Source: Candidatus Omnitrophota bacterium (GTDB lineage Bacteria; Omnitrophota; Gorgyraeia; Gygaellales; Gygaellaceae). Taken from it: a stretch of DNA of 64,000 nucleotides. Of the stretch, positions 15,064 through 36,046 are shown piece by piece (the stretch's first letter is position 1; every line of letters begins with the position of its first letter). Made by a program: the position numbers and the translations under genes. The notes below the pieces were generated by a model. That model searched no databases. It worked only from the letters and a program-made list of their open reading frames with translations, and had not been told where the DNA came from. The stretch is taken from assembly GCA_018400015.1 (NCBI GenBank), contig JAGYNB010000002.1:180555-244554 (forward strand), in the 5' to 3' direction.

Positions 15064-15092
15064 TTGACAAATAATAGATTATGAAATATAGT
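15064..15092 (+). promoter_or_regulatory. sigma70-type promoter heading the pilus/c-di-GMP locus (TTGACA-17-TATAGT)
   Basis: TTGACA 15064-15069, 17-nt spacer, TATAGT 15087-15092 (alternative TATAAT at 15093-15098); AAGGAGG RBS at 15114-15120; ATG at 15129. Confidence 0.6.
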
Positions 15093-15128
15093 ATAATTAT
15101 ATAATCATAATTTTAAGGAGGCATTTAT

Positions 15129-16529
15129 ATGATTAAGCTATTTAAGAAAACGTCTATTTCTTCCAGGGGATTGCGTAGCAAGTTAGCCGTTGCTTTTGCG
15201 TTAACCTCGACCATTCCAATTCTTATAAGCGTTTATCTGATTTCACAAATTACCGATGTTTCCACTTTGGATTTACGTATCGGTTCATTTTTGATTTTGA
15301 GCCTTCTTATTGCTGTTTTTGGTTATTTTGTCTTAAACAACATAATCAATTCCATTATAAAAACTAGCAAAAAAGCTAATGCTTATATACAAGGCCAGAC
15401 TTTTGGTGGAATAAAGATTTCAACCGATGATGAGATTTCCGATTTGAATAAGGCTATTGATAAACTTAATGACCGTATAAGGGAAAATATGGAAAAGTTA
15501 AGTTTTTATGATAAGCAAACTAAGCTAGTCGGTATGGATTTGAATAAGAAAGTAATCGCTCTTTCAAGTCTATTGCAAATCGGTAGTTTTATTTCTTCGA
15601 GCAATAAAATTGATGATATTTTTTCTTTGGTTGTAGGAAAACTTTCGAATATTGAGCCAAGTTTTGAAGTATTCTTGTTTTTGGAGAATAAAAATAATGA
15701 GTTTTCTCTCGATTTTGCTTCGAATCAGGAAAAGATTAAATCTAATGTATTTACTTTATCCAGCGATTCAAAAAGAATTGTTCAGGCAATAACCAGCAAC
15801 GAACCTTTAAGATTGGATATTTCTCATTCTGAGTCTAAGACTTTAGAGCGTTTAGGAGAAATATTCAACATCAGTAGTATAGTTATTTTTCCTATTTTTG
15901 CTTGCGAACAGACAAAAGGGCTCCTAATTGTCGCTAGCACAAAAAACGATTATGCTTTTGAGGCAGGCGATATTGAACTTATAAGGTTATTTGCCCGTCA
16001 GCTTGCAATAGCTTTGGAGAAGAACCAGCTTTTTAACAAAGCGAAGAAATTGGAGACAAAAGATGAATTAACTGGTTTATACAACGAAAGTTTTATTCGA
16101 GATCGTCTAAATGAAGAGATAAAACGCGCTTTTGTTTCCCAGAGGCCGTGTTCTTTTGTTCTTTTCGGAGTGGATAAATTCCAGAATTACCTGCAGCGAA
16201 AAGGTCAGGACGGGGCGGAAGTTTCTTTAAAACATATTGCTTCTTTATTGAAAGAGTCTTCTCGGGAAATTGACAAGCCTGGTCGTTTTGGGTATTCTGA
16301 CTTTGCATTGTTATTGCCGGAAATGAATAAAAAGGAAGCGATTAATCTTGCGGAAGAGATCAGGAACAAGGTTGCTTTTGTTTTTAAAGAAGAAGACGCT
16401 GGTCTTCGTCTGACAATTTCAGCTGCTGTCAGTGAAAATCCGATTGATGGGATAAAAGCCGAAGAATTGATTTCCCATGCAAGAAATCTTTTATCGAATA
16501 AAGATTCAGACAATAAGGTTTTTCGCTAA
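15129..16529 (+). CDS. membrane-anchored GAF-like + degenerate GGDEF domain protein (PelD-like c-di-GMP receptor candidate)
   Basis: Two N-terminal TM helices and a HAMP-like linker; GGDEF-domain start LTGLYNESF; signature degenerated to GYSDF; RxxD I-site retained (REIDKPGRFGYSDF). Confidence 0.6.
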   Translation: MIKLFKKTSISSRGLRSKLAVAFALTSTIPILISVYLISQITDVSTLDLRIGSFLILSLLIAVFGYFVLNNIINSIIKTSKKANAYIQGQTFGGIKISTDDEISDLNKAIDKLNDRIRENMEKLSFYDKQTKLVGMDLNKKVIALSSLLQIGSFISSSNKIDDIFSLVVGKLSNIEPSFEVFLFLENKNNEFSLDFASNQEKIKSNVFTLSSDSKRIVQAITSNEPLRLDISHSESKTLERLGEIFNISSIVIFPIFACEQTKGLLIVASTKNDYAFEAGDIELIRLFARQLAIALEKNQLFNKAKKLETKDELTGLYNESFIRDRLNEEIKRAFVSQRPCSFVLFGVDKFQNYLQRKGQDGAEVSLKHIASLLKESSREIDKPGRFGYSDFALLLPEMNKKEAINLAEEIRNKVAFVFKEEDAGLRLTISAAVSENPIDGIKAEELISHARNLLSNKDSDNKVFR

Positions 16530-16531: not shown

Positions 16532-16981
16532 ATGTTTTCTCCTTTTAGGAAGGTTGTAAATAAACAATTAGGTGAATTGCTGGTTGAGCATAAAATTATC
16601 AGTGAGGCGCAATTAAAAAAAGCCCTTGTGTTGCAAAGCCAGCGTAGCGGCGCTTTAATCGGAGAATTGATAGTAGAGCTTGGTTATGCAAAGGAAGAGG
16701 ATATTGCCAATACTCTGGCAGCCCAGTACGGTTTTCCTTATTTGCCTTTGGATAATTATTCGGTCGACGATAGTATTATAAAATTGATACCGAAGAACGT
16801 TGCGAGTCAGTACTGTTTATTGGCAATAGATAAGCTTGCCAATTCAATTGTCGTAGCCACAAGCAATCCTTTGAACACCCAGGCAATCGAAGACGTTGAA
16901 TATATTACTAATTGTGATGTTCGTGTTTTTATCTCTACGGCAACGAGCATTAGAAAGAAAATCAAAGAGTACTACCAATAG
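16532..16981 (+). CDS. stand-alone MshEN / T2SS-E N-terminal domain protein (putative c-di-GMP binding)
   Basis: 149 aa; tandem MshEN-type motifs KQLGELLVEHKIISEAQLKKALVLQ and ALIGELIVELGYAKEEDIANTLAAQ followed by the GspE_N fold (YGFPYLPL). Confidence 0.7.
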   Translation: MFSPFRKVVNKQLGELLVEHKIISEAQLKKALVLQSQRSGALIGELIVELGYAKEEDIANTLAAQYGFPYLPLDNYSVDDSIIKLIPKNVASQYCLLAIDKLANSIVVATSNPLNTQAIEDVEYITNCDVRVFISTATSIRKKIKEYYQ

Positions 16982-16984: not shown

Positions 16985-18715
16985 ATGGCAACATTAAAAG
17001 AAAACTTAACCAATATTCTTATCGATAATAACCTTATTACGCGTGAGAATTTGGAAAAGGCTATTACTACACAAAAAAAACAAGGTGGTAGTCTTAGTCA
17101 GATACTTATAGATTCTGGTTTCGTAAAAGAAAAAGATTTGGTTATTGCCTTAAGCCAAGGTTTAGGAATCCCACCGATAAATTTAAATAAGATAAAAATA
17201 GATAAACAAGTTGTAAAACTTATTTCTCAAGAAGTAGCGCAGCGTTATCTTATTTTGCCTATTTCTCAAGTCGGCGCGACTTTAACCGTTGCCATGGCAG
17301 ATCCTTTGAATGTTTTTACTTTGGACGATTTGAAAACCCTTACGAGTATGAAGATCAATCCTGTTATAACTACTGCTAATGATATTAAGGATGCGATTAA
17401 GAATTATTATGTAGACGATCAAAAGCAGGAAGATGCAAAAATCGACGATATCATCAAGGATATTTCTACTGCGGATATAGAGCTGGTTAAAGAGTCCGAG
17501 GATAAGGAAGAGAACATAAGTTTTATGCATATGGTCGATGATGCACCTATTGTAAAAATCACCAATAGGTTCCTTAGCGATGCAGTTAAGCTCAATGCAA
17601 GCGATGTTTTGTTCGAACCGTTTGAAAAGACAACGCGTGTAAGATGTCGCGTTGACGGCGCATTAAGAGAAATAGAAACTCTTCCCAAATATATGCATGA
17701 AGCAATAGTGTCTCGTACTAAAGTTATTTCTGGGCTTGATATCTCAGAACATAGGCTTCCTCAGGACGGGCGTTTTAAGATAAAATTCCAGTCTCGAGAG
17801 GTTGATTTTAGAATTTCTATTCTGCCGTCGGTTTTCGGAGAAAAAGTTGCTTTGCGTGTTTTGGATAAAACAACCGCAATGCTTGATATTGAGAAACTTA
17901 ATTTTTCAGAGCATAATCTTAATATCCTCAAACACTGTTCTTCTTTTCCGCACGGTATGATGCTTGTTTGCGGTCCTACTGGTTCAGGTAAGACCACTAC
18001 ACTTTATTCCATTCTTAAATATGTGGATAGCCCTGAAAAAAATATTGTTACCGTAGAAGACCCTGTTGAATATCAGCTTCATGGAGTAAATCAAGTGACT
18101 TGTCGGCCTGATATCGGCCTGACATTTGCTGCAGCACTGCGTTCCATATTAAGGCAAGACCCCGATATAATAATGGTTGGTGAAATTAGGGATTTTGAGA
18201 CTTTGGATATTTCCATAAAATCAGCTCTTACCGGACACATGGTTTTAAGTACGCTTCATACGACGACAGCTCCCGGTTCAATTATCAGAATGTTGAATAT
18301 GGGCGCGGAACCTTTTTTGGTTACGTCCTGTGTAGTTGGTGTTATTGCTCAAAGGTTAGTGCGCAAGTTGTGTCCAAAATGTAAAGAAGCATATAAACCT
18401 TCTAAGGCAGTCTTAGATACTTTAAGTGTTGCCGGGGATATTAAAGAAAGCGTTACTTTTTATCGGGCAAAAGGTTGTCCGGAATGTTTTAATATAGGTT
18501 TTCGCGGAAGGCTGGCAATATGCGAAGTGCTTGTTTTGACACACGAAGTTAAAAATTTGATTTTAAAACGGGCGCAGGAGCATCAGATTAAGAAGATGGC
18601 TCGTTCGCAGAGCATGCGAACTTTAAGAGAAGACGGTATTGATAAAATAATTGCTGGTTTAACCACACCGGAAGAGGTATTAAAGGTTACCGCTTCTGAC
18701 GTAAAGGCAGAATAG
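16985..18715 (+). CDS. pilB: type IV pilus assembly ATPase PilB/GspE family (paralog 1)
   Basis: GspE_N domains, Walker A GPTGSGKTT, Asp box, Walker B, His box, tetracysteine CPKC...CPEC zinc site; 576 aa. Confidence 0.85.
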   Translation: MATLKENLTNILIDNNLITRENLEKAITTQKKQGGSLSQILIDSGFVKEKDLVIALSQGLGIPPINLNKIKIDKQVVKLISQEVAQRYLILPISQVGATLTVAMADPLNVFTLDDLKTLTSMKINPVITTANDIKDAIKNYYVDDQKQEDAKIDDIIKDISTADIELVKESEDKEENISFMHMVDDAPIVKITNRFLSDAVKLNASDVLFEPFEKTTRVRCRVDGALREIETLPKYMHEAIVSRTKVISGLDISEHRLPQDGRFKIKFQSREVDFRISILPSVFGEKVALRVLDKTTAMLDIEKLNFSEHNLNILKHCSSFPHGMMLVCGPTGSGKTTTLYSILKYVDSPEKNIVTVEDPVEYQLHGVNQVTCRPDIGLTFAAALRSILRQDPDIIMVGEIRDFETLDISIKSALTGHMVLSTLHTTTAPGSIIRMLNMGAEPFLVTSCVVGVIAQRLVRKLCPKCKEAYKPSKAVLDTLSVAGDIKESVTFYRAKGCPECFNIGFRGRLAICEVLVLTHEVKNLILKRAQEHQIKKMARSQSMRTLREDGIDKIIAGLTTPEEVLKVTASDVKAE

Positions 18716-18717: not shown

Positions 18718-20439
18718 ATGGTTAAGTCTTTAAGGGACAAGATTCTTGATTATTTATTGGAAGAAAAGAGGATTAGCAAAAGCGATATCGAACGGTTTTC
18801 TAAACTTCAGGAAAAGAGTAATCTTAAGATGGAAACTATTCTTATCGATAATGGTATTATTTCTGCCCAGGAGTATTTATCCATGCTGGCAAGGGAAACC
18901 AATACACCTGTAGTTTGTCTTGAGAGGATTGAGTGTGATCCGGAGATTTTAAATATTATACCGGAAAGAATATGCCAACAGTATAGTATTTTTCCTGTTG
19001 CCAAACTGGGGAATTTACTTACTTTGGCTATGTCTGACCCGATGAATATTTTTGCCATGGACGATATTAAGTCTTTAACATCTTTTGAAATTAATACGGT
19101 TTTAGCCAGCGAAGAAGATATTAAGAAAAACATACAGTTTTGGTATGAGGAATCAAAGAATAAAGATATATCCGAGTTGATTGGAGAGGTCAGCGAAGAA
19201 GAGATCAACGTTGTTGGTGAAATTAAGAAAAGGGAAATTGAAGGACAGTTTGATCTTGACAGGGCAATGTTTGAAGCTGAAGAATCTCCTGTTATCAAGC
19301 TGGTTAACCTTATGCTTAGTGAATCTTACCAGAAAAGGGCTTCGGATATTCATATTGAACCAGAAGAAGATTTTTTAAGGGTGCGCTATAGAATTGACGG
19401 TATGCTGCATGACGCTTACCAGATTCCCAAAGAAAAGCAGAATGCTGTAATCACGCGTATAAAGATAATGTCCAATCTGGATATTACTGAGTTTAGAATT
19501 CCTCAGGATGGCCGTTTTAAGATCCGTTTAGGGCAAAACGAAGTTGATTTCCGTGTATCAATTTTACCGATTAGTTTTGGGGAAAAGGTAGTTATGCGTT
19601 TGTTGGATAAACGTAATCTTTCTATTGGTCTGGAGAAATTAGGATTTTTAGCTGAGCCAATGCAGAAATTCAAAGATTGTATTAGTAAGCCATACGGAAT
19701 GATTCTTGTAACAGGGCCTACAGGGTCGGGAAAATCAACTACGCTTTATTCAATTATTAACCAGCTTAACACGTCCGCAACTCATATAATTACCGTAGAA
19801 GACCCTGTTGAGTATCAGATTGAAGGTATAGCGCAGATTCCGGTTAAGGCGGATATCGGTCTTACGTTCTCTGCTGGGCTTCGGGCGCTTTTGCGTCAAA
19901 GCCCTGATATTATCTTAATCGGTGAGATCAGGGATTCCGAAACTGCCGATATTGCCGTTAAGGCATCTCTCACCGGGCAGATGGTTTTATCGACGCTTCA
20001 TACCAACGATGCTGCAGGAGCAATAACCAGACTTATCGATATGGGCGTTGAACCGTTTTTGGTTTCTTCGAGTTTAATCATGACTTGTGCTCAGCGATTA
20101 AGTAGAAAAATATGTTCAAACTGTAAAGAAGAATATACGCCCGATCCAACGGTAGTAAAAAATCTTGGAATAAAATTGGAAAAAGACTCTGTTTTTTATC
20201 ACGGAAGAGGATGTTCTCATTGCAATAATACGGGTTATCGTGGTAGAATAGGGACAATAGAGGTTTTGGTAATTGATGATAAGATCAGAGAGATGATAAT
20301 CAAAAGAGTCTCATCTGATGAAGTCAGAGAATATGCCGTAACTCAAGGCATGGAGACATTAAGGGATAATGGCCTGCGTCAGGCAGCAATTGGTCTTACG
20401 ACCTTAGAAGAGGTTTTAAGAATCACTTCAGAGGAATAG
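18718..20439 (+). CDS. type IV pilus assembly ATPase PilB/GspE family (paralog 2)
   Basis: Same architecture as paralog 1: Walker A GPTGSGKSTT and CSNC...CSHC zinc site; 573 aa; has an N-terminal domain, so not PilT-like. Confidence 0.85.
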   Translation: MVKSLRDKILDYLLEEKRISKSDIERFSKLQEKSNLKMETILIDNGIISAQEYLSMLARETNTPVVCLERIECDPEILNIIPERICQQYSIFPVAKLGNLLTLAMSDPMNIFAMDDIKSLTSFEINTVLASEEDIKKNIQFWYEESKNKDISELIGEVSEEEINVVGEIKKREIEGQFDLDRAMFEAEESPVIKLVNLMLSESYQKRASDIHIEPEEDFLRVRYRIDGMLHDAYQIPKEKQNAVITRIKIMSNLDITEFRIPQDGRFKIRLGQNEVDFRVSILPISFGEKVVMRLLDKRNLSIGLEKLGFLAEPMQKFKDCISKPYGMILVTGPTGSGKSTTLYSIINQLNTSATHIITVEDPVEYQIEGIAQIPVKADIGLTFSAGLRALLRQSPDIILIGEIRDSETADIAVKASLTGQMVLSTLHTNDAAGAITRLIDMGVEPFLVSSSLIMTCAQRLSRKICSNCKEEYTPDPTVVKNLGIKLEKDSVFYHGRGCSHCNNTGYRGRIGTIEVLVIDDKIREMIIKRVSSDEVREYAVTQGMETLRDNGLRQAAIGLTTLEEVLRITSEE

Positions 20440-26356: not shown

Positions 26357-26824
26357 ATGAGAAAAAGTTTTTCTCTAATTGAGTTAGTGTTTGCTCTTGG
26401 AATATTGGGTCTTGTAGCAGCGACTTTCATGATGAGTTTTGCCAATTATTCTAATCTTAATGAGACCAATATTAATGTTAACCTAGCATATATAAAGGCC
26501 CGTTCGGTTGTTGAAGAATTGCGTTCCATCGATGATTCAGATGAAGGAGATTTAAAGACTGCGAAGGATAGCTGTGGTACTGAAAAATTAGTAGAAAACG
26601 GTCTTTTGGAAGGAGTTGGCCAGCCTGACACAGGGATTTATTCAGTGTATCTGAAGTGTCTAAGGGATGCAGGCGGGTCGTGTCTTGACAGGACATTTGA
26701 TGTAACGGTATCATTGTGTTGGGTGCAGTCAAACGGAAGAGTAATTGGCGAAAGGGATTCTGATAACGAAGAATGCGAAGATTCTATCTATGAATATACC
26801 AGCAGTTTTACCACTGCTAAATAA
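26357..26824 (+). CDS. type IV pilin-like protein (major pilin candidate; atypical Ser at position -1)
   Basis: N-terminus MRKS/FSLIELVFALGILGLVAA with Glu+5, hydrophobic alpha1-N helix, Cys-rich C-terminal region; 155 aa. Confidence 0.6.
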   Translation: MRKSFSLIELVFALGILGLVAATFMMSFANYSNLNETNINVNLAYIKARSVVEELRSIDDSDEGDLKTAKDSCGTEKLVENGLLEGVGQPDTGIYSVYLKCLRDAGGSCLDRTFDVTVSLCWVQSNGRVIGERDSDNEECEDSIYEYTSSFTTAK

Positions 26825-26827: not shown

Positions 26828-27445
26828 ATGATTTCTAAAATTAAGCTTTTTTCCAGAAAAGGTTTCAGCATACTGGAGTTGATTACGGCGATTGGGATTT
26901 TTTCGTTTTTGACCATATTTTTATTTTCCGGGATTATTACCGTGCGCAATATCTGGCTTAAGTCTTCTGCAAAGATAAAATTGGTTGATGAAGGGATGAA
27001 TGCTTTAAGCGTTATGAAATCAGAATTAGCCCAGTCAGGCAGGGATTATTTTAAGATTACGAATTCAGCTAGCGATTATTGCGCCAACAATGATACTAAT
27101 ACCGGGAGTTTGATTATTTTTCCTGTACCGATTTTAATTAGTGGTAAATATCATGATATCAACGGATCAATTAATTGGGGATATGACGGCGATACGAATA
27201 AAAAAATTCGCTATAGAGTCTATGATAATAAGCTTTTTCGTGAGATAGCAGATACGTCTTCAAGCTCTTGCGATACTATCGAGAGCAAAGTATTAGCTTA
27301 CAATATGGATAGCGACTCGCCTGTTACTTTTGAGTATGATACCGGCAGTCACACGATAGCACTAACTATTAATTTAGAAGATAGGGATTTTGCGAGTAAT
27401 GAAGTTGATTTAAGCCTGGAAGAGATTATTTACCCGGAAAATTAA
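26828..27445 (+). CDS. prepilin-type N-terminal cleavage/methylation domain protein (minor pilin or pseudopilin)
   Basis: Canonical G/FSILELITAIGIFS prepilin motif with Glu+5; 205 aa. Confidence 0.65.
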   Translation: MISKIKLFSRKGFSILELITAIGIFSFLTIFLFSGIITVRNIWLKSSAKIKLVDEGMNALSVMKSELAQSGRDYFKITNSASDYCANNDTNTGSLIIFPVPILISGKYHDINGSINWGYDGDTNKKIRYRVYDNKLFREIADTSSSSCDTIESKVLAYNMDSDSPVTFEYDTGSHTIALTINLEDRDFASNEVDLSLEEIIYPEN

Positions 27446-29917: not shown

Positions 29918-30571
29918 ATGGCGCAAATAAATTTACTACAGACGAGAGCGGTTTTAAAAACTAAAAAAGCAAAGGCGGATAAAGGTGCTGCCAGCGCTAA
30001 GAAGTTTTCTTTTGACTTTAAAATTGACTTTCGCAGGATGCCCAGGTGGTTTTTTGCCATTGCCATAGGCTGGATTGTTTTTTTGGCACTTGGTGAAACG
30101 ATAATGATTTTAAAGTTAAATGATTCCAAGCGAAAACTAAAGATCCTTGAAACAGAAGGCAGTTTTTTTTCAAAAAGCCCCAAAGAGATAGAGGATTTAA
30201 AAAAGAAGAAAAAAAGCCTTCAGGACGCCTTAGGAATTATCGAAGGATTTCTGATTACCAAAACGCCTTTTTCACAGGCGCTTAATATTATAAGTGATCA
30301 GATAATTGACGGGGTTTGGCTTGAGAAGATATTTTTTAATTCCAAGAAAATCGGTAAAGACAAAGAAGAGATCACTATAAAAATAAACGGTAAAGTTTAC
30401 TCGGCAATCTCGCAAGAGCAGATAGATATATTGGGACAGTTTTCCAATGGTTTAAAAAATAATCCTTATTTTGAATTATTGTTTAGCAGTTTGCAGGTTG
30501 GTAATCTTAAAAATGTAGATTATATGGGATTTGATGTTTTGGATTTTGAAATGGAGGTATCTTTAAGATAA
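29918..30571 (+). CDS. pilN: type IV pilus assembly protein PilN-like
   Basis: N-terminal INLLQTR (INLLP-type) motif, single TM segment, periplasmic coiled-coil plus ferredoxin-like region; 217 aa. Confidence 0.7.
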   Translation: MAQINLLQTRAVLKTKKAKADKGAASAKKFSFDFKIDFRRMPRWFFAIAIGWIVFLALGETIMILKLNDSKRKLKILETEGSFFSKSPKEIEDLKKKKKSLQDALGIIEGFLITKTPFSQALNIISDQIIDGVWLEKIFFNSKKIGKDKEEITIKINGKVYSAISQEQIDILGQFSNGLKNNPYFELLFSSLQVGNLKNVDYMGFDVLDFEMEVSLR

Positions 30572-30575: not shown

Positions 30576-31157
30576 ATGGACTTTGATATTAAAAGAATTA
30601 TAGAATGGGTTAAGTTTAGGAAAGTGGAAGTTTCTATTCTTGCGGGGTTATTTGTTATTGGCCTAATATTATCATTTTTGCTATTTCAACCACAGGCGAG
30701 AAAAATCCAGGAATACAATAATTCCTTAATCTCAAGCTCTAAGGATACAAGCAATCTGCGTACAGCGCAAGTAGAATTAAACGAGTTAAAAAAAGAAATT
30801 ACTGTTATTGAAGAGACTTTAGCAGAACATGAAAAAAAACTCTTTTCTCAGGAAGATACTCAGGCATTTTTAAATTATATAAACAGGCTCGCGAAGTTTT
30901 ATAACGTGCGCATTCTAAAGATCAATCCTTTATCACAGGTTGAAAACGAAGTTAAGTCTTTGGATAAGGTGTATCTGGCAATGCCTTATCGGTTGAGTTT
31001 AACCTGTAGCTATCATAATCTAGGGAAATTCCTGAATAAACTTGAGCAGTCAAAGGATAGTTTTGTAAGGGTTGATAGTTTGTCTATACAGGCCGACAAC
31101 AGCAATATGAGAGAGCATAAAGTGGAGTTAGGGATAACTATTTTTTCCATTAAATAA
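30576..31157 (+). CDS. pilO: type IV pilus assembly protein PilO-like
   Basis: Single N-terminal TM segment then coiled coil; size and position between pilN and pilP. Confidence 0.6.
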   Translation: MDFDIKRIIEWVKFRKVEVSILAGLFVIGLILSFLLFQPQARKIQEYNNSLISSSKDTSNLRTAQVELNELKKEITVIEETLAEHEKKLFSQEDTQAFLNYINRLAKFYNVRILKINPLSQVENEVKSLDKVYLAMPYRLSLTCSYHNLGKFLNKLEQSKDSFVRVDSLSIQADNSNMREHKVELGITIFSIK

Positions 31158-31158: not shown

Positions 31159-31545
31159 ATGAAAAAGATAATTTTATTAATTATGTTTTTGAGTTTCTCA
31201 ATAATTGCTAGTGCCAGTGAAAATGATTTTGAACAAAGGCTTAATTTTGTGTATAATGATAATAATAAGCGCGATCCGTTTATCCCTTTACTTGATAAAG
31301 ACGGGTTGCGACCAAGATCGGATTTATTTGAGAAAGCTGAACTTCCGATAAAAATTGATCTATCAGGTATTGTCTGGAATAAACAAGTGCAATTTGCTAT
31401 AATTAATGGTAAAATAGTGAAAGAAAATGAAGAAGTTACAAGAGGTCTTACTTTAGAAAAAATTAATTCTGATAACGTGGTTTTAGAGTATGGAGGAAGA
31501 AGTACTAAGGTGTATATAGGAGGCCCTAAGAAGGATGATAAGTAG
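31159..31545 (+). CDS. pilP: type IV pilus assembly protein PilP-like
   Basis: Signal peptide, conserved RDPF motif (NKRDPFIPLL), C-terminal beta domain; 128 aa. Confidence 0.6.
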   Translation: MKKIILLIMFLSFSIIASASENDFEQRLNFVYNDNNKRDPFIPLLDKDGLRPRSDLFEKAELPIKIDLSGIVWNKQVQFAIINGKIVKENEEVTRGLTLEKINSDNVVLEYGGRSTKVYIGGPKKDDK

Positions 31546-33100
31546 TAAAAGAATAAAGTTTATATTTGTTTTTTTATTGTGCTTAGGTGTTTGTATATAT
31601 ACACTTAACGCAGAAGAGTTTAATCCTGCTGAGTTTGGCCAGGAAGGATTTGATCCTGCTTTTCAGGCAGTGCCACCTATTCAAACCGCACAAGTTATCA
31701 AAAAAGATAGCGTTCAAAAGCAGGAAGAGGAAATTCCAGCCAAAGAACAAGCTTTTGAGGCAGGTGGGGTTTACAACAATGAGGATTTTGTGAATTTGGC
31801 TTTTGACAATGCCGATATCCGCGATGTTATAAAAGTTTTAGCTGCAAGAAGCGATATGAATATTATTGTCGGTGAGGGTGTTCAAGCAAATGTTACCATG
31901 AAGCTAAAAGATGTAATTTGGGAGTCAGCCCTGGAATTAATCCTAAATACGTATAATCTTACCTATCAAAAAGAAGGCAATCTTATTAGAGTTATGACGC
32001 TTACTGAATCTGAAGAGGAAGCGAAGAAAATTCCAATGATAACTAAGATCATTCCGCTTAATTTCGCACAAACTCCTGAAATGTCCGCTTCCATTGCCAA
32101 GATGCTTTCTGCAAGAGGGTCTGTACAGGAAAATGTACGTACGAATACATTGATTATCACCGATATCCCTTCGCGCGTTAAGATGATAGAAGAGACGATT
32201 ACGAAACTTGATACACCTACACCCCAGGTTTTAATCGATGTTTTGATTATGGATATCACCTTAACCGATAGCGATGATCTGGGTGTTGACTGGCAGGCAA
32301 TCACGACAAACCAGTTATCAGATTTAAGCAGTGCCAATAGAACAAAGTCGGTCACTTTAGAGCAGCCATCAGGCATGTCTACAACAGGCGGTATTGCAGG
32401 AGATCCGGCATTTACGCTGGCTCTTGTTAAAAAGTTTGGTGAAGCTAATTTTACTGCTAACCTGCAGGCATGGATAGAAAATAAAGAAGCCAAGGTTTTG
32501 GCAAATCCGAAGATTTTAACGCTTGATAATCAGGAAGCTAAAATCGAAATAATAAATCAGTTTCCATATCTGCAGACTTCAAGTTCGACTGACGGCGGCA
32601 GCACTAGCGGAACAGAATATAAAAATATAGGAACTAGCCTTAGCGTAACAGCGCATATTACTAATGACGGACATATTACTTTAAATTTAAAACCGGAACA
32701 GGATATAAATGCCGGAACCGACTCTACAACCGGTGCGCCTATTGTTGATACCCGTTCTGCCGAGACCAATGTTTTGGTAAAAGATGGCCAGACCGTTGCC
32801 TTGGGCGGTTTAAGGCGTGTTGATAAGTCTACTACTATAAGCAAAGTACCTATTTTGGGGGATATTCCGTTTATCGGCAAGATATTCCAGAATAGGCAAA
32901 TTGACGACAAGGACGTTGAACTTGTAATGTTTGTTACTCCTCATATCATAAAGGATGCTGGCATAACTGATAAAGAAAGAATGTACATAAAAGAAAATCT
33001 TCCTGGTCCACAAAGGCCTTTTTTGCGCAACAAGCCCTTTGTTTTAGAGGAAAAATACGATTTAAGGTCCCCTTCATATAAAACTAAAGGGAGTAAATAA
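31535..33100 (+). CDS. pilQ: type IV pilus secretin PilQ (short form, no AMIN domains)
   Basis: Signal peptide, N0/N1-type domains, C-terminal secretin domain (VLANPKILTLDNQEAKIEI...GGLRRVDKSTTISKVPILGDIPFIGKIFQ). Confidence 0.85.
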   Translation: MISSKRIKFIFVFLLCLGVCIYTLNAEEFNPAEFGQEGFDPAFQAVPPIQTAQVIKKDSVQKQEEEIPAKEQAFEAGGVYNNEDFVNLAFDNADIRDVIKVLAARSDMNIIVGEGVQANVTMKLKDVIWESALELILNTYNLTYQKEGNLIRVMTLTESEEEAKKIPMITKIIPLNFAQTPEMSASIAKMLSARGSVQENVRTNTLIITDIPSRVKMIEETITKLDTPTPQVLIDVLIMDITLTDSDDLGVDWQAITTNQLSDLSSANRTKSVTLEQPSGMSTTGGIAGDPAFTLALVKKFGEANFTANLQAWIENKEAKVLANPKILTLDNQEAKIEIINQFPYLQTSSSTDGGSTSGTEYKNIGTSLSVTAHITNDGHITLNLKPEQDINAGTDSTTGAPIVDTRSAETNVLVKDGQTVALGGLRRVDKSTTISKVPILGDIPFIGKIFQNRQIDDKDVELVMFVTPHIIKDAGITDKERMYIKENLPGPQRPFLRNKPFVLEEKYDLRSPSYKTKGSK

Positions 33101-34980
33101 TGAGGAAAAAGTTCTTATTAATTTTTACTTTTTTTATTTTAAGTTTTTCTTTGAATTATTCCTTTGCCCAAGATCAAAATCCTCTTCTTGGTGAAGAAGA
33201 ATTGATATGGCAAAAAAACGTTAGCGGCATAAAAGATGCAGTGAAAGATTTAATTAACGAAAACAAGAACTTAAAGCAGCAAATTGAGTTAAGGTCTTTA
33301 GAGATGCACAAACTTAATGAAATCATGAAGACCTTGCAGGAAAAGAACGAAACACTTCAGCAAAAAATCGAATCAACTGACCTTAAAGTTAATTTAAACA
33401 GCAAAGTAAAGTCTCTCGTCCAGCGCGCTGATTCATTAGAAAGCGTGAAAGCCTCGCTTGATGAAGAGGTAAAACAGCTCAGAGAGGAAAATAAAACTTT
33501 AAAAAGAGACTCCGCGGCATTTGAAAAAGAGCTCAACACGTTAAGAAAAAAACTTGAAGCTACGGAAGATGAACTTAAACAAATGAATGATTCTTATGGC
33601 AATTTTAAGCAAAAATCTCTTGATTACGAAAAAGAGCTTGAGGGCAAACTTGTTAAATTAGAGTCTGATAATAAAAGATTTAGCGCGGCAGCTGAAGAAA
33701 ATGAGAAGTTGTCAACTCAGCTTAATGAAATAAAACAAGATCTTGAAAGTTCTCAGAAAGAAATCGGTGAATTAAAAAAATCTTTAGCGGCCAAGGACAA
33801 GATAATTGGATTCAGTAAGGATGAGCTTAAAAAAATCGAGCTTTTATCCAGCGAGTTAGGAAAAAGTGAAAAAGAAGTAGTTGATTTGAGAAAACAGTTG
33901 AATGAGTCCAATAAAAATTTAGAGATTGCCAATAAAGAGATTGGATTGCTTAATGAATCGTTCAATAAATTCAAAGAAAAATCAGCTGAATATCAGGAAA
34001 AACTGATCAAAGCCCAGAAAGAGAATATAGATTTAGAAAGCAGGATCGCTCCTTTGCAAGACGACTTAAAAAAAAAGATTTTAGAGATTGAAAATGTTAA
34101 GTCTGGTTATGAAAACCAGATTTCATTGTTAAAGACTCAAAATTCCGCATTAGAAGACAGAATCGCATTTTTTTCTCAAGAGATTACCCAGTTAACGGCT
34201 GAAAAAAGAGAATTAGAATCCTCGATGGCCAAGTTAAAGTCTAGAATCGAACCTCTAGTGAGCCCTTTTAAAGAAGAGATTCGTCAAAAAGACTACGAGC
34301 TCGATAGAATCAAGTCTAATTACGAAAAAGATTTAAGTAAGATTAAGGAAAATAATTCTTCTTTGAATGATAGAATAGATTCTTTGAGCGGTTTTATCGC
34401 TCAGGCAAATGCTGAAAAAAGACTTCTTGAACAAGAGTTTTTAAATATGCAGGACAAGCTTAAGTCTCTGGAGCAGGAAAAAGATCTTGCCTTAAGAAGA
34501 TCTGTTATGGTCAGCGATGCCCGTAAAACAAAACAAATTAGAACTGCTTCTGTTTATTCTGATTCCAAACAGAAGGATAATGGTTTTCAAATACCTGAAA
34601 GCGTAAAATTAAGGGCATTAAAACAGGCAGAGAATAAATTAGGCAGTTTTACAAAACAGGATTCGACAGCTATAGGGGCGATGCTTGAAACTGCTTATGA
34701 TTATGCGTTTGGTGGTCAGATTAAATTGGCAATAAAAGAATATGCCAATGTTTTAGAGATTGATCCCGGGAACAAAGACGCCTTGTTTAACCAGGGGGTA
34801 ATTTATCTTAATGCCAATGATTCTAGACGTGCAGTTGTTAACTTTGAGAAGCTCATAGAATTAGATCCCAATGACGAACAGGCATTATATAATTTGGCTT
34901 TATGTTACAGTAAGCTTCATAATAAAAAACAGATGGAATATTATTATTTAAAATATTTGGAATTGGAAAATGGCTCTTGA
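33100..34980 (+). CDS. secreted coiled-coil protein with C-terminal TPR repeats (pilus-associated; PilF/FimV-like role possible)
   Basis: Signal peptide MRKKFLLIFTFFILSFSLNYSFAQ, about 450 aa of continuous coiled coil, 3-4 C-terminal TPR motifs. Confidence 0.55.
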   Translation: MRKKFLLIFTFFILSFSLNYSFAQDQNPLLGEEELIWQKNVSGIKDAVKDLINENKNLKQQIELRSLEMHKLNEIMKTLQEKNETLQQKIESTDLKVNLNSKVKSLVQRADSLESVKASLDEEVKQLREENKTLKRDSAAFEKELNTLRKKLEATEDELKQMNDSYGNFKQKSLDYEKELEGKLVKLESDNKRFSAAAEENEKLSTQLNEIKQDLESSQKEIGELKKSLAAKDKIIGFSKDELKKIELLSSELGKSEKEVVDLRKQLNESNKNLEIANKEIGLLNESFNKFKEKSAEYQEKLIKAQKENIDLESRIAPLQDDLKKKILEIENVKSGYENQISLLKTQNSALEDRIAFFSQEITQLTAEKRELESSMAKLKSRIEPLVSPFKEEIRQKDYELDRIKSNYEKDLSKIKENNSSLNDRIDSLSGFIAQANAEKRLLEQEFLNMQDKLKSLEQEKDLALRRSVMVSDARKTKQIRTASVYSDSKQKDNGFQIPESVKLRALKQAENKLGSFTKQDSTAIGAMLETAYDYAFGGQIKLAIKEYANVLEIDPGNKDALFNQGVIYLNANDSRRAVVNFEKLIELDPNDEQALYNLALCYSKLHNKKQMEYYYLKYLELENGS

Positions 34981-36046
34981 TCAAAAAGGTTTTTTAGGCA
35001 TAGGCAGTAGTCTTTTCAAGCAAAAAGAAAAGAATTTTGTAGGTATTGATATCGGTTCATCAAGCATTAAGATTGTAAGGCTTGTTCCGAATAGAGATAA
35101 TAAGAAAATGCAGTTAAGTGATTTTGCCGATATTGCTTTTGAAGAACAGGTCAGCACCGATCAAATAAAACGCGCGGTTGATGAAGCTTTAAAGCAAACC
35201 AATATTCCTAAAGATAGCGAAGCAGTTTTTAATATCCCCAATAATTCTGCCATAACCCGTTTTATAGTAATGCCGAAGATGAATCATGACGACCTGAGAA
35301 AAGCCATTGGTTATGAACTTGAAAAATACATTGCTTTTGATACAAAAGAGGCTGTTTATGATTTTCGTATTTTGGATGACCTGCAGACTAAAGAAGGCCA
35401 TTTAAAAGTTCTTTTGGTTATTACAAAGAAAGAGACTGTTGATGAAAGGGTAAAGGCGATCGAAGATGCAGGGCTTATTCCTAAAGTGGTAAGTATTGAT
35501 TCTGTTGTTATTCCTAATACATTTTATCTTAATCATATAGATAAAAAAGATAAGAATATCGCCATAGTAAACCTTGGATCTCGGCTATGCAGTATCAGTG
35601 TTGTTAAAGGCGGAATATCCAACTTTATGCGTGATATAGCAATTGGAATAGAAAATATAGTAAGTTTGGTTTCGGAAAAACTGGAAATGAACAAAACTGA
35701 TATTATTAATTCTATTATGAAACCTGAATTGCAGTCTAATGATTTTAAAGATATTATTAATTCAGTTTTGTCTAATTTGTTGAACGAACTTTACCTTTCG
35801 TTCGATTATTACGAGACGCAGTTCGAAACTTCTATTGACGAGATTTATATTACCGGCGGACTTTCTCAGCAGCCGGGTTTGATTGACTTTTTATCCAGTA
35901 ATTTAGGTATATCAGTTAATAAACTTAATCCCCTATTGAATCTTGAAGTTGCTGCCGAATTGAAGTCCAAGATTGATTCAAAGAAGGATATTATGGCTGT
36001 AAGCATAGGTCTTGCCTTAGAGGAATCCGATCTAAAATATTTTTAA
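34970..36046 (+). CDS. pilM: type IV pilus assembly protein PilM (actin-like ATPase fold)
   Basis: FVGIDIGSSSIKIVRL N-terminal ASKHA phosphate-1 motif, PilM_2 domain organisation; 358 aa. Confidence 0.8.
   Translation: MALDQKGFLGIGSSLFKQKEKNFVGIDIGSSSIKIVRLVPNRDNKKMQLSDFADIAFEEQVSTDQIKRAVDEALKQTNIPKDSEAVFNIPNNSAITRFIVMPKMNHDDLRKAIGYELEKYIAFDTKEAVYDFRILDDLQTKEGHLKVLLVITKKETVDERVKAIEDAGLIPKVVSIDSVVIPNTFYLNHIDKKDKNIAIVNLGSRLCSISVVKGGISNFMRDIAIGIENIVSLVSEKLEMNKTDIINSIMKPELQSNDFKDIINSVLSNLLNELYLSFDYYETQFETSIDEIYITGGLSQQPGLIDFLSSNLGISVNKLNPLLNLEVAAELKSKIDSKKDIMAVSIGLALEESDLKYF

What the first reader, a model, noticed from the sequence alone, without database searches (positions are those of the whole stretch)
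15064..36046. Type IV pilus locus with an embedded c-di-GMP signalling layer
A 21-kb co-directional locus starts at a strong promoter and encodes, in order, a PelD-like degenerate-GGDEF receptor, a stand-alone MshEN protein, two PilB-type ATPases, a 1388-aa GGDEF-NTPase-HEAT protein, a second stand-alone MshEN protein, PilC, two pilins, a large PilX_N tip-like protein, PilN/O/P/Q, a coiled-coil TPR protein and PilM. Four proteins with c-di-GMP-related domains interleaved among core pilus genes is not a standard T4aP, T4bP, Tad or MSHA arrangement. It suggests c-di-GMP control of pilus assembly is hard-wired into the operon. No PilT-type retraction ATPase and no prepilin peptidase are present in the window.
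Basis: partly seen in the sequence, partly recalled or inferred. Interest (0 to 1): 0.85.

Follow-up and report, generated by a model that had tools for sequence, protein, structure and literature searches.

The report
Omnitrophota pilus operon with built-in c-di-GMP module
This is a real type IV pilus gene cluster from an uncultured Omnitrophota bacterium in which a probable maker of the signal molecule c-di-GMP and small stand-alone sensors for it are conserved parts of the operon, while the pilus motor proteins have lost the sensor signature they carry in other bacteria.

Summary
Window 15129-36046 carries 16 tightly packed + strand genes with the reported domain content. The organism is an Omnitrophota relative of Ca. 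Gygaella obscura (82-85% protein identity).

The c-di-GMP genes are not incidental.
- All 13 related Omnitrophota loci with the 1388-aa GGDEF-STAND-HEAT gene have a ~150-aa stand-alone MshEN gene directly downstream, inside a PilB/PilC cluster.
- 57 of 88 related loci have a stand-alone MshEN gene directly upstream of a PilB gene.
- The glycine at position 3 of both c-di-GMP-binding motifs is kept in 83/90 stand-alone MshEN proteins, against 5/89 PilB N-termini from the same loci.
- The MshEN2 model superposes on MshE bound to c-di-GMP (TM 0.76-0.85).
- The cyclase family carries a fixed AGDEF motif (118/120) with the other catalytic residues intact.

Corrections:
- The first gene is a dead GGDEF protein. 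Its RxxD site is not conserved in its family (5/120), so "PelD-like receptor" is only an architectural analogy.
- PilX_N has no HMM support.
- Relatives carry PilT exactly where this lineage lacks it.

Best reading: a T4aP-like machine under local, trans-acting c-di-GMP control. I found no description of it in the searched literature. It is a new variant of a known kind. All biochemistry is inferred.

The parts
15064..15092 (+). Sigma-70-like promoter match, TTGACA-17-TATAGT. An AAGGAGG ribosome-binding site follows at 15116-15122.
   Evidence: scores it 11/12, the joint best in 20 kb. One search shows the sequence. The site count in the region is not above shuffles, so function is unproven.
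15129..16529 (+). Membrane protein of 466 aa: two N-terminal TM helices, a coiled/HAMP-like linker, GAF, and a catalytically dead GGDEF domain (GYSDF). RxxD is present as REID.
   Evidence: Pfam GAF_2 and GGDEF. Alignment to active cyclases shows loss of the first metal Asp, the Asn and the GD. In the family of 120, the signature is variable and RxxD occurs in 5/120. It is the first gene of the locus in 35 related loci.
16532..16981 (+). Stand-alone MshEN protein 1 (149 aa), 3 nt upstream of PilB1.
   Evidence: Pfam MshEN. NCBIfam c-di-GMP_motif 52.7 bits against a cut-off of 38. It spans the whole PilB N-terminal region of M. xanthus and Geobacter PilB. Motif I deviates at positions 1 (Q) and 10 (K), as read from the translation (one search shows the aligned motif).
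16985..18715 (+). PilB-type assembly ATPase 1 (576 aa). Walker A/B, Asp box, His box and the tetracysteine motif are intact. The N-terminal MshEN domain lacks the motif glycines.
   Evidence: Pfam T2SSE 442 bits. TIGR02538 641 bits, below its cut-off of 675. Motif residues.
18718..20439 (+). PilB-type assembly ATPase 2 (573 aa), 43% identical to PilB1. Its N-terminal MshEN domain is degenerate.
   Evidence: c-di-GMP_motif scores 27.4 bits, below the cut-off of 38. Motif residues.
20441..24607 (+). 1388-aa protein: N-terminal GGDEF domain (AGDEF, RxxD = REQD), a STAND P-loop NTPase module (AAA_16), an alpha-solenoid, and C-terminal HEAT repeats.
   Evidence: Pfam. AGDEF in 118/120 homologues with the DxD, N and D catalytic residues conserved. 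AF2 pLDDT 80.6, with top Foldseek hits a STAND-TPR protein (6MFV), Apaf-1 and Cdc6/Orc1, followed by HEAT/ARM solenoids.
24607..25077 (+). Stand-alone MshEN protein 2 (156 aa). Its start overlaps the cyclase stop by 1 nt. It is the best c-di-GMP receptor candidate.
   Evidence: c-di-GMP_motif 55.9 bits. Both 24-aa motifs match at every position except position 1, which is L in motif I and F in motif II. Invariant columns in 19 orthologues include G15, L33, Q36, G44, L47, L62 and Q65. AF2 pLDDT 85.7, with 5HTL as top hit at TM 0.76-0.85.
25146..26351 (+). PilC/GspF-type platform protein (401 aa).
   Evidence: Pfam T2SSF x2. NCBIfam PilC and GspF models are both below cut-off.
26357..26824 (+). 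Type IV pilin-like protein (155 aa) with leader MRKS|FSLIEL: Ser at -1 and Glu at +5.
   Evidence: N_methyl 18.9 bits, below cut-off. Orthologues carry G/S-F-T/S-L-x-E leaders.
26828..27445 (+). Second pilin-like protein (205 aa) with leader ...RKG|FSILEL.
   Evidence: N_methyl 16.5 bits, below cut-off. A weak GspJ hit. Orthologues.
27459..29906 (+). Large (815 aa) pilin-like protein with a KKG-hydrophobic N-terminus lacking Glu5. Possibly a GspK/PilX-like tip subunit or adhesin.
   Evidence: No Pfam or NCBIfam hit. Orthologues of 761-862 aa in L002, L006, L007 and L099 share the A..AE(K/R)G motif.
29918..30571 (+). PilN-like bitopic protein (217 aa) with an N-terminal INLL motif.
   Evidence: No Pfam hit. 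INLL is conserved in 13 orthologues. It holds the gene-order position before PilO.
30576..31157 (+). PilO (193 aa).
   Evidence: Pfam PilO 43.5 bits.
31159..31545 (+). Small periplasmic protein (128 aa) in the PilP position, with a GspB/GspC-HR-like C-terminus.
   Evidence: Pfam T2SSB 35.1 bits (cut-off 28.4) and T2SSC weak. It precedes the secretin gene in L001, L002, L007-L009 and several metagenome loci.
31535..33100 (+). Secretin (521 aa) with N0/STN, Secretin_N and Secretin domains.
   Evidence: Pfam.
33100..34980 (+). Exported coiled-coil protein with C-terminal TPR repeats (626 aa). Possibly a secretin-associated scaffold or pilotin-like factor.
   Evidence: Pfam TPR families and coiled-coil families. 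It follows the secretin gene in L001, L002, L007, L008, L092, L093 and L098.
34970..36046 (+). PilM actin-like protein (358 aa).
   Evidence: Pfam PilM_2 145 bits.

Best explanation
The locus encodes a type IVa-like pilus machine of an Omnitrophota bacterium, with a dedicated local c-di-GMP circuit encoded inside the operon.

Machine components:
- two PilB motors and PilC
- pilins and a large tip-like pilin
- PilM, PilN, PilO, a PilP-like protein, a secretin and a TPR protein

Proposed mechanism (inferred):
1. The 1388-aa protein is a STAND-type switch. A signal or partner bound by its HEAT/solenoid arm drives nucleotide-dependent oligomerisation of the P-loop module.
2. Oligomerisation brings the N-terminal AGDEF GGDEF domains together, so that they make c-di-GMP. 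The RxxD site limits output.
3. The translationally coupled 156-aa MshEN2 protein, and the paralogous MshEN1 encoded just before PilB1, capture c-di-GMP with the four-helix-bundle motifs known from MshE and PilF.
4. They then act in trans on the PilB ATPases, or on their PilM/PilC docking site, to switch pilus extension on. In effect they replace the cis-acting sensor domain that PilB proteins of other bacteria carry. That domain is degenerate in both PilB paralogues here.
5. The first gene, a membrane GAF-dead-GGDEF protein, is a conserved accessory regulator of unknown input.

What is shown: domain content, conservation of gene linkage, residue conservation and predicted folds.
What is inferred: cyclase activity, c-di-GMP binding, the target of the MshEN proteins, and the direction of regulation.
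For: Machine identity:
- Pfam and NCBIfam hits for PilB, PilC, PilO, secretin and PilM.
- INLL motif in the PilN-like protein and class III leaders in the pilins.
- A genuine PilT (TIGR01420, 473-482 bits) at the orthologous locus of relatives.

Gene linkage:
- The cyclase gene is followed by a stand-alone MshEN gene, with spacing from -1 to +89 nt, in 13 of 13 Omnitrophota loci (8 cyclase-MshEN-PilC, 5 cyclase-MshEN-PilB'-PilB-PilC).
- A stand-alone MshEN gene lies directly before a PilB gene in 57 of 88 loci.

Receptor signature:
- Gly3 of both motifs is present in 83/90 stand-alone MshEN proteins against 5/89 PilB proteins. Gln24 of motif II is present in 85/90 against 8/89.
- The relaxed Wang motif matches twice in 43/90 against 2/89.
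- The invariant columns of the MshEN2 family fall on motif positions.
- NCBIfam c-di-GMP_motif is above cut-off for both stand-alone proteins.
- The predicted fold matches MshE with c-di-GMP at TM 0.76-0.85, rmsd 2.0-2.3 A.
- Hydrophobic or Lys residues at motif position 1 are compatible with, and even favour, high affinity (PMC11731258).
- In type B loci PilB1 lacks the N-terminal domain altogether and PilB2 lacks the helical bundle.

Cyclase:
- The DxD, N, D and (A)GDEF residues are conserved in 118/120 homologues.
- An AGDEF cyclase is active in V. cholerae (PMC3974145, title and abstract).
- Walker A/B residues are invariant.
- Foldseek finds STAND-like matches.

Precedents:
- Local DGC-MshEN signalling by DgcJ and NfrB (PMC8669469).
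- Trans control of PilB through its N-domain: PilZ-PilB N-domain complex, PDB 7LKM.
Against: - There is no experimental data of any kind, and the organism is uncultured.
- The cyclase has AGDEF, not GG(D/E)EF. An AGDEF domain in P. aeruginosa NbdA is described as degenerate (abstract).
- MshEN1 of this window deviates from the consensus at positions 1 (Q) and 10 (K) of motif I.
- Only 43/90 stand-alone proteins pass the relaxed two-motif regex.
- Many related loci have the MshEN-PilB-PilB-PilC backbone without the STAND cyclase (types C and B-E-C). The cyclase is therefore an add-on in some lineages, not a universal part.
- The GAF-GGDEF family lacks a conserved I-site.
- No phosphodiesterase, PilT or prepilin peptidase is in the window.
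- The metagenome loci were selected by MshEN similarity and the first loci by cyclase similarity, so the frequencies are not unbiased.
- The target of the MshEN proteins is a guess.
Confidence: 0.55

Rival explanations
1. The stand-alone MshEN proteins are structural adaptors, not c-di-GMP sensors. They would be detached PilB N-terminal domains that dock ATPases to PilM/PilC or chaperone PilB. The GGDEF proteins would feed a cell-wide c-di-GMP pool unrelated to the pilus.
For: - MshEN1 sits 3 nt before PilB1 and covers exactly the PilB N-terminal region, like a split gene.
- In type B loci PilB1 lacks that domain.
- The C-terminal subdomain resembles the GspE N1 domain that binds GspL (weak hits 2BH1 and 4PHT).
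- Many loci have MshEN but no cyclase.
- XpsE-type N-domains are known not to bind c-di-GMP (PMC12943098).
Against: - Purifying selection falls precisely on the c-di-GMP-contacting residues (Gly3, Leu17, Leu21, Gln24 of both motifs) in the stand-alone proteins. In the PilB-fused copies from the same loci, Gly3 of both motifs and Gln24 of motif II are largely lost.
- The cyclase gene is always directly followed by an MshEN gene in the Omnitrophota loci examined (13/13), in this window with a 1-nt overlap.
Confidence: 0.2
2. The machine is a type II secretion-like system or other non-pilus type IV filament device, for example one that exports or presents large surface proteins used in predation. 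It would not be a surface pilus. c-di-GMP would then gate secretion.
For: - PilB and PilC score almost equally on GspE and GspF models, all below cut-off.
- The protein in the PilP position hits T2SSB and T2SSC.
- The large E5-less pilin resembles GspK.
- There is no PilT in the window.
- T2SS-like loci are reported as conserved in Omnitrophota near giant genes (preprint 10.1101/2023.11.21.568195).
- c-di-GMP-binding ATPases associated with type II secretion systems are known (PMC4624772, title and abstract).
Against: - PilM_2, a PilN with the INLL motif and PilO are T4aP alignment-complex parts. No GspL, GspM or GspC family passes its Pfam cut-off.
- Orthologous loci of relatives encode a bona fide PilT inside the cluster.
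- The locus described near giant genes has rcpC and a rotamase gene, which are absent here.
- No giant gene lies in this window.
Confidence: 0.15
3. The AGDEF-STAND-HEAT protein is not a cyclase but a nucleotide-sensing scaffold or receptor. In that case the locus responds to c-di-GMP or GTP made elsewhere, or the MshEN proteins act as inhibitors or buffers that hold the pilus off.
For: - The first Gly of the signature is replaced in 118/120 family members.
- An RxxD site is present here.
- AGDEF in NbdA is regarded as degenerate.
- Degenerate GGDEF receptors are common, for example PelD (PMC12448109).
Against: - All other catalytic and substrate-binding residues are conserved across the family at 19-34% identity. 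That is expected for an enzyme rather than an I-site receptor.
- The I-site is lost in large subclades while the A-site stays fixed.
- AGDEF is catalytically competent in VCA0965.
Confidence: 0.1

Closest known systems
Vibrio cholerae MSHA pilus operon (mshH...mshE)
   Same: - It is a T4a-type pilus operon whose first gene encodes a membrane HAMP-linked protein with poorly conserved GGDEF(-EAL) domains (PMC3509428).
- Its assembly is controlled by c-di-GMP through an MshEN domain (PMC5013675).
- From general knowledge, not tested here: it also contains an AAA-type NTPase (MshM) and a TPR protein (MshN).
   Different: - In MSHA the MshEN sensor is fused to the single ATPase MshE and carries RLG motifs.
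- Here the fused copies are degenerate and the intact motifs sit on two separate ~150-aa proteins.
- Here there are two PilB paralogues and an operon-encoded STAND-type GGDEF protein.
- MshH has EAL and a periplasmic domain. The protein here has GAF and no EAL.
Thermus thermophilus PilF (three tandem GSPII/MshEN domains on one ATPase)
   Same: - There are several MshEN-type domains per motor.
[quoted passage not shown]
- The MshEN2 model matches the GSPII-B structures at TM about 0.7-0.79.
   Different: In PilF the domains are covalently fused. Here one domain per motor is a separate gene product, conserved as such in 57 loci, and a second stand-alone copy is coupled to a cyclase.
E. coli DgcJ-NfrB local c-di-GMP module
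   Same: A specific diguanylate cyclase supplies c-di-GMP locally to an MshEN domain that activates an envelope machine. The two proteins interact directly (PMC8669469).
   Different: - The target there is a glycosyltransferase with a fused MshEN domain.
- The cyclase is not a STAND protein.
- The genes are not translationally coupled.
Xanthomonas FimX-PilZ-PilB complex
   Same: c-di-GMP control of PilB is delivered in trans by a small adaptor bound to the PilB N-terminal domain (PDB 7LKM/7LKO, among the fold-search hits; PMC8389850). A degenerate GGDEF protein takes part.
   Different: The adaptor there is a PilZ-fold protein and the receptor is an EAL domain. Here the adaptor candidate is itself an MshEN fold.
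STAND NTPases with N-terminal nucleotide cyclase effectors (AAA_16 plus TPR or HTH, for example actinobacterial adenylate cyclase-ATPase proteins)
   Same: - The layout is effector domain, then AAA_16 P-loop module, then repeat sensor.
- The FPCPxFIDR and DDLQWADK motifs are shared with hundreds of AAA_16 proteins in Actinomycetota and other phyla.
- Fold hits include the STAND protein 6MFV and Apaf-1.
   Different: - The effector is an AGDEF GGDEF domain and the sensor arm is a HEAT/ARM solenoid.
- The gene is embedded in a pilus operon with a dedicated receptor gene.
- The comparison with actinobacterial cyclases rests on general knowledge, not on a test here.
PelD (Pseudomonas aeruginosa)
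   Same: The architecture is TM helices, GAF and a degenerate GGDEF domain with an RxxD motif (sequence).
   Different: - There is no detectable sequence relation to PelD in a PDB search at E<=0.01.
- RxxD occurs in only 5/120 family members.
- There is no pel operon context.

Membership tests
Type IVa pilus machinery | PilB-type hexameric assembly ATPase and PilC platform protein | tested here: met
   T2SSE scores 442 and 452 bits and T2SSF 226 bits. The NCBIfam PilB and PilC equivalog cut-offs are not reached: 641 and 633 bits against 675, and 428 against 700.
Type IVa pilus machinery | PilM-PilN-PilO-PilP alignment complex and PilQ secretin | tested here: inconclusive
   PilM_2, PilO and Secretin pass Pfam cut-offs. 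PilN is supported only by the INLL motif and its position. The protein in the PilP position hits T2SSB and T2SSC, not PilP.
Type IVa pilus machinery | Prepilins with a class III signal peptide, plus a prepilin peptidase | tested here: inconclusive
   Leaders with F+1 and E+5 are visible. N_methyl scores are below cut-off. No Peptidase_A24 was found among the window's + strand ORFs of 150 aa or more. The rest of the genome is not available.
Type IVa pilus machinery | PilT retraction ATPase | tested here: not met
   None in the window. Relatives have PilT (TIGR01420, 473-482 bits) between the GAF-GGDEF and MshEN genes. It may lie elsewhere in this genome.
MshEN c-di-GMP receptor domain | Two 24-residue motifs, (R/K/L)LGxx(L/V/I)(L/V/I)xxG(L/V/I)(L/V/I)xxxxLxxxLxxQ, forming a four-helix bundle | tested here: met
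   MshEN2 matches all positions of both motifs except position 1, which is L in motif I (allowed by the extended consensus) and F in motif II. MshEN1 has Q at position 1 and K at position 10 of motif I. Family invariants fall on motif positions. PilB1 and PilB2 fail at Gly3 of both motifs.
MshEN c-di-GMP receptor domain | Curated model hit and fold | tested here: met
   NF053729 scores 52.7 and 55.9 bits against a cut-off of 38; PilB2 scores 27.4 and fails. Foldseek top hit is 5HTL at TM 0.76-0.85.
MshEN c-di-GMP receptor domain | Measured c-di-GMP binding | not testable with these tools
   Needs DRaCALA or ITC.
Active GGDEF diguanylate cyclase | GG(D/E)EF A-site | tested here: not met
   The motif is AGDEF here and in 118/120 homologues. 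AGDEF is active in VCA0965 (PMC3974145), so failing the strict motif does not exclude activity.
Active GGDEF diguanylate cyclase | Metal- and GTP-binding residues (DxD, N, D of GD) and the wide-turn NR | tested here: met
   The pattern MDLDNFKGINDTLGHLAGD is conserved across the family.
STAND NTPase | P-loop NOD with Walker A/B followed by helical/winged-helix modules and a repeat sensor arm | tested here: met
   AAA_16 scores 56 bits and HEAT_2 48 bits. Invariant GxGK and DD residues. Foldseek hits are 6MFV, Apaf-1 and Cdc6/Orc1, then HEAT/ARM proteins. E-values are around 1e-6 but TM scores are low because the model is multi-domain.
PelD-type degenerate-GGDEF c-di-GMP receptor | I-site RxxD conserved as the ligand site; homology to PelD | tested here: not met
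   RxxD is present in this protein but in only 5/120 family members. PelD is not among 46 PDB hits at E<=0.01.
Type II secretion system | GspC, GspL and GspM assembly platform and GspE/F equivalogs | tested here: not met
   No GspL, GspM or GspC family passes its cut-off. GspE scores 577 and 609 bits against 630. GspF scores 417 against 424.

The most novel reading that the evidence does not exclude
Omnitrophota have re-wired pilus control. An Apaf-1-like, oligomerising STAND diguanylate cyclase acts as a contact or prey sensor through its HEAT arm. It fires a local c-di-GMP burst that is read by dedicated trans-acting MshEN adaptor proteins. These choose which of two PilB motors (and, in relatives, PilT) engages the platform. 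That would be a split, modular motor-selection switch not described for any type IV filament system, and possibly tied to the epibiotic or predatory lifestyle of the phylum.
Probability: 0.15. Interest if true: 0.8.

Novelty: new variant of a known kind. Interest (0 to 1): 0.6.

Why it matters
c-di-GMP control of type IV pili through the MshEN domain is established, but only with the sensor fused to the motor ATPase.

Here a whole phylum appears to have detached the sensor. Stand-alone MshEN proteins keep the binding signature, while the PilB-fused copies decay or are lost. In some lineages the detached sensor is also coupled translationally to a STAND-type cyclase.

If confirmed, this would provide:
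- a natural system for asking how an MshEN domain activates a PilB hexamer, in trans and titratable;
- a first functional context for the large AGDEF-AAA_16 cyclase family;
- a regulatory handle on surface appendages of Omnitrophota, an uncultured phylum of ultra-small, possibly predatory bacteria in which attachment machinery is thought to be central.

All proposed steps can be tested with recombinant proteins, without culturing the organism.

Tried and rejected
1. Genome-contig scan with an alignment of the NOD-HEAT region. The second worked, but its two patterns (FPCPxFIDR, DDLQWADK) are generic to AAA_16. Loci L012-L086 are therefore unrelated STAND proteins, mostly from Actinomycetota, and were ignored. 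Only L007-L011 were useful.

2. PelD homology. A phmmer search of the first protein against PDB found only ordinary GGDEF proteins. Rejected as membership.

3. PilX_N for the 815-aa protein. There was no Pfam hit even at E<=10.

4. c-di-GMP riboswitch or other RNA elements. There were no Rfam matches in the window.

5. The Planctomycetota homologue of the cyclase (L004/L005). The 156-aa ORF downstream is not MshEN by phmmer or NCBIfam, and no pilus genes lie nearby. The cyclase-MshEN-pilus linkage was therefore seen only in the Omnitrophota-type loci.

6. Identity with the 'T2SS-like locus upstream of giant genes' in the West-Roberts preprint. That locus is described with rcpC and a rotamase, and there is no giant gene here. 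Rejected.

7. The 408-421-aa ATPase of type B loci as PilT. It scores as a PilB/GspE core (510-525 bits) and falls below the PilT cut-off (163-171 against 319). Rejected.

8. A homologue search with MshEN2 returned only 19 proteins because of word-index sensitivity. That was enough for a structure alignment but not for a census.

9. I did not use the representative-protein search, because its output has no taxonomy or context.

Full report
**1. What is in the window**

The 64-kb window has about 37% G+C. Every sizeable ORF lies on the + strand, and GC skew is positive throughout.

The 1388-aa protein is 83% identical to a 'diguanylate cyclase' of Candidatus Gygaella obscura. More distant homologues are labelled Omnitrophota/Omnitrophica. 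The species belongs to phylum Candidatus Omnitrophota in the PVC group.

Gaps between them run from -11 to +68 nt.

Pfam confirms these assignments:
- GAF+GGDEF
- MshEN alone, twice
- T2SSE+MshEN, twice
- GGDEF+AAA_16+HEAT_2
- T2SSF
- PilO
- Secretin with its N-domains
- TPR plus coiled coil
- PilM_2

Four assignments are weaker:
- The two pilin-like ORFs score below the N_methyl cut-off. They do show F+1...E+5 leaders, which are conserved in orthologues.
- The 'PilN' ORF is supported by a conserved N-terminal INLL motif and by its position.
- The 'PilP' ORF hits T2SSB and T2SSC.
- The 815-aa ORF has no family hit at all. Its orthologues share a KKG-hydrophobic N-terminus without Glu5 and an A..AE(K/R)G motif, so it is GspK/PilX-like at motif level only.

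**2. Boundaries and transcription signals**

The best sigma-70-like match in 20 kb is TTGACA-17-TATAGT at 15064-15092. It sits in the 93-nt gap before the first gene and is followed by AAGGAGG. Such matches are not enriched over shuffles, and Omnitrophota promoters are uncharacterised.

No terminator-like site is intergenic. The tight co-directional packing continues through a Cpn10-like gene, a split pta and ackA to 39525.

In relatives, PilM is followed by unrelated genes (hisG in L001). The functional unit therefore ends at PilM, even if transcription does not.

No PilT and no prepilin peptidase is encoded among the + strand ORFs of 150 aa or more in the window. No Rfam family, including c-di-GMP riboswitches, is present.

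**3. Is the arrangement conserved?**

Yes. I read gene neighbourhoods by three routes:
- contigs carrying homologues of the cyclase
- contigs carrying homologues of the first gene
- a metagenome scan with the MshEN2 family

All were annotated with the window's proteins as queries. Three related layouts recur.

| Layout | Gene order | Seen in |
|---|---|---|
| Type A (this window) | GAF-GGDEF, MshEN1, PilB1, PilB2, cyclase, MshEN2, PilC, pilins, PilN/O/P-like, secretin, TPR protein, PilM | L007/L089 (Gygaella), L001, L008, L093, L098, L141 and partial contigs, down to 29-34% cyclase identity |
| Type B | cyclase, MshEN, a 408-421-aa PilB core without N-terminal domain, a second PilB that retains only the C-terminal half of the MshEN region, PilC, pilins | L002, L006, L009-L011 |
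| Type C | GAF-GGDEF, PilT, MshEN, PilB, PilB, PilC, pilins, PilM/N/O..., with no cyclase | L087, L088 and ten metagenome loci |

In type C the PilT is genuine (TIGR01420, 473-482 bits against a cut-off of 319).

Counts over 88 non-redundant loci:
- 80 have a stand-alone MshEN gene.
- 57 have it directly before a PilB gene.
- 35 have the GAF-GGDEF gene directly upstream, 12 of them with PilT in between.
- All 13 with the STAND cyclase have MshEN as the next gene.
- 4 have a second MshEN between PilB2 and PilC without a cyclase.

The locus also keeps its chromosomal address, downstream of lspA, rluD, a murA-like gene, mreBCD, pbp2 and rodA. A radical SAM gene follows rodA in the window and in L088.

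A Planctomycetota homologue of the cyclase has neither MshEN nor pilus neighbours.

These frequencies come from similarity-selected loci. They show recurrence, not unbiased prevalence.

**4. Where the c-di-GMP sensor sits**

The MshEN domain binds c-di-GMP through two 24-residue motifs. Several features are critical: the backbone of Gly3, the Leu clusters and Gln24. Position 1 may be R, K or L, and hydrophobic residues there give the tightest binding (PMC5013675; PMC11731258).

In this window:
- MshEN2 fits both motifs at every position except position 1 of motif II (LLGQIFLKSGIISKEQLKEALESQ and FLGGVLIKLGYLTEMDLVMGLSSQ).
- MshEN1 fits, except for Q at position 1 and K at position 10 of motif I.
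- PilB1 has Thr and Ser in place of the two Gly3 residues.
- PilB2 has Leu and Glu in those places.

NCBIfam's c-di-GMP_motif model passes for both stand-alone proteins and for PilB1, but not for PilB2.

Across the related loci:

| Feature | Stand-alone MshEN | PilB of 520 aa or more |
|---|---|---|
| Gly3 in both motifs | 83/90 | 5/89 |
| Gln24 of motif II | 85/90 | 8/89 |

The relaxed two-motif pattern of Wang et al. matches 43/90 stand-alone proteins against 2/89 PilB proteins.

In 19 MshEN2 orthologues the invariant columns include G15, L33, Q36, G44, L47, L62 and Q65, which are motif positions.

An AlphaFold model of MshEN2 (pLDDT 85.7) has MshE bound to c-di-GMP (5HTL) as its best PDB match, at TM 0.76-0.85 and rmsd 2.0-2.3 A. 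The PilF GSPII domains and the Xanthomonas PilB N-domain in complex with PilZ follow.

The simplest reading is that c-di-GMP sensing has moved in this phylum from the ATPase to separately encoded MshEN proteins. MshEN1 plus PilB1 looks like a split, PilF-like multi-GSPII ATPase.

**5. The two GGDEF proteins**

*The 1388-aa protein.* Its N-terminal GGDEF domain has every catalytic and substrate-binding residue except the first glycine (RYAGDEF). AGDEF is fixed in 118 of 120 homologues, including TPR-armed relatives from other phyla. The RxxD inhibitory site (REQD here) is kept only in some subclades.

AGDEF is catalytically active in V. cholerae VCA0965 (PMC3974145). It is regarded as degenerate in NbdA.

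After the GGDEF domain come an AAA_16 P-loop module with invariant Walker residues and a long helical solenoid ending in HEAT repeats. The model of residues 189-1388 (pLDDT 80.6) best matches a STAND-TPR protein (6MFV), Apaf-1 and Cdc6/Orc1, then karyopherin- and PP2A-like solenoids.

GGDEF domains must pair up to make c-di-GMP (general knowledge). A STAND switch that oligomerises on ligand binding would be a natural activator. This step is inferred.

*The first gene.* It belongs to a large Omnitrophota family (at least 120 members at E<1e-74) with the layout TM, HAMP, GAF, GGDEF. In its GGDEF domain the first metal-binding Asp, the Asn and the GD are lost, and the signature varies (SGDEF, GGDEF, GDDEF, GYSDF and others). 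RxxD is present in only 5 of 120 members. QRPC and LPEKNK motifs are conserved.

It is therefore catalytically dead and not a family-wide I-site receptor. PelD is not detectably related. I treat it as a conserved accessory regulator of unknown input, analogous in position and architecture to MshH of the MSHA operon. [quoted passage not shown]

**6. Mechanism proposed**

Shown:
- a T4aP-like gene set
- conserved linkage of the cyclase, MshEN and PilB genes
- selective conservation of c-di-GMP-binding residues on the stand-alone MshEN proteins
- predicted folds

Inferred:
1. The STAND cyclase produces c-di-GMP locally when its HEAT arm is engaged.
2. MshEN2, translationally coupled by a 1-nt overlap, and MshEN1 bind it.
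3. They act in trans on PilB1 and/or PilB2, or on the PilM/PilC docking site, to license pilus extension.

Both PilB paralogues (43% identical) have intact Walker A/B, Asp and His boxes and the tetracysteine motif. Both are therefore probably active motors. Why there are two is open.

Precedents for the individual steps:
- DgcJ-NfrB local signalling to an MshEN domain (PMC8669469)
- trans control of PilB through its N-domain by PilZ-FimX (PMC8389850, listed)

Rivals, weighed in the structured fields:
- MshEN as a purely structural split domain
- a T2SS-like rather than pilus function
- a non-catalytic AGDEF protein

**7. Comparison with known systems, and novelty**

The components are known kinds: T4aP parts, an MshEN receptor, a GGDEF cyclase, a STAND NTPase and a degenerate GGDEF protein. 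Three things were not found described:
- stand-alone MshEN proteins as conserved pilus-operon members that hold the binding signature the motors have lost
- a STAND/HEAT AGDEF cyclase translationally coupled to such a receptor inside the operon
- the paired PilB paralogues as a phylum-wide backbone

Full-text searches on Omnitrophota pili and c-di-GMP, Gygaella, stand-alone MshEN, and STAND plus GGDEF found no description. The T2SS-like locus reported near Omnitrophota giant genes is a different cluster. The library lacks many subscription papers, for example the main Omnitrophota comparative study, so absence of evidence is limited.

I rate this a new variant of a known kind, with interest about 0.6. 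It is a clear, testable and phylum-wide rewiring of a well-studied control principle, but it rests entirely on sequence inference in an uncultured lineage.

Noticed in passing
L087:11428-12498 and L088:11488-12555 (orthologous position in the window: between 16529 and 16532): Relatives encode a genuine PilT (TIGR01420, 473-482 bits) between the GAF-GGDEF gene and the MshEN gene. This window and the other type A loci with this junction resolved (L001, L007, L008, L093, L098, L141) lack it at that place. So either retraction is lost or PilT has moved elsewhere in the lineages that acquired the STAND cyclase.
   Followed up: partly
window 4481-15035; L001:1-4470; L087:220-9888; L088:1-9924: The pilus locus keeps the same chromosomal address across distant Omnitrophota, directly downstream of lspA, rluD, a murA-like gene, mreB, mreC, mreD, pbp2 and rodA. 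A radical SAM gene follows rodA in the window and in L088.
   Followed up: partly
P0001-P0120 (homologues of window 20441-24607): The whole GGDEF-AAA_16 family has R[YF]AGDEF instead of GGDEF in 118 of 120 members. This includes TPR-armed members labelled only 'diguanylate cyclase'. All other catalytic residues are kept, making this a family-wide A-site variant.
   Followed up: partly
P0140-P0259 (homologues of window 15129-16529): The TM-HAMP-GAF-dead-GGDEF family has strongly conserved QRPC and LPEKNK motifs of unknown meaning inside the degenerate GGDEF domain.
   Followed up: no
L002:1185-3635: In a type B locus a CHASE2-GGDEF(weak)-HD-GYP protein is encoded directly upstream of the pilN/O/P-like/secretin genes. 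This would supply a phosphodiesterase to the same locus. No phosphodiesterase is in the window.
   Followed up: no
L105, L101, L129, L135 (metagenome loci): Some loci have a second stand-alone MshEN gene between PilB2 and PilC but no STAND cyclase. The MshEN duplication and the cyclase insertion may therefore be separate events.
   Followed up: no
window 36056-39525: Right after pilM (9-nt gap) come a 128-aa Cpn10-like protein and a split phosphotransacetylase (AAA_26+DRTGG at 36444-37532, then PTA_PTB at 37532-38464). Acetate kinase follows. All are tightly packed with the pilus genes but are not conserved next to them in relatives.
   Followed up: partly
window 1-64000: Every ORF of 150 aa or more that has a family hit is on the + strand. 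GC skew is positive in every 2-kb bin. No Rfam family reaches its gathering score in 64 kb.
   Followed up: no
window 46677-48521: An amino-acid permease is fused to a C-terminal PTS EIIA_2 domain (614 aa).
   Followed up: no
window 26685-26714: A second 11/12 promoter-like match (TTGACA-18-TATCAT) lies inside the first pilin gene, upstream of the second pilin gene. It may be chance.
   Followed up: no
window 22500-22800 (residues ~690-780 of the 1388-aa protein): The AlphaFold model shows a small alpha/beta insert (model residues ~507-590) between the STAND module and the solenoid. An acidic disordered linker lies at model residues 725-760. Neither has a family assignment.
   Followed up: no
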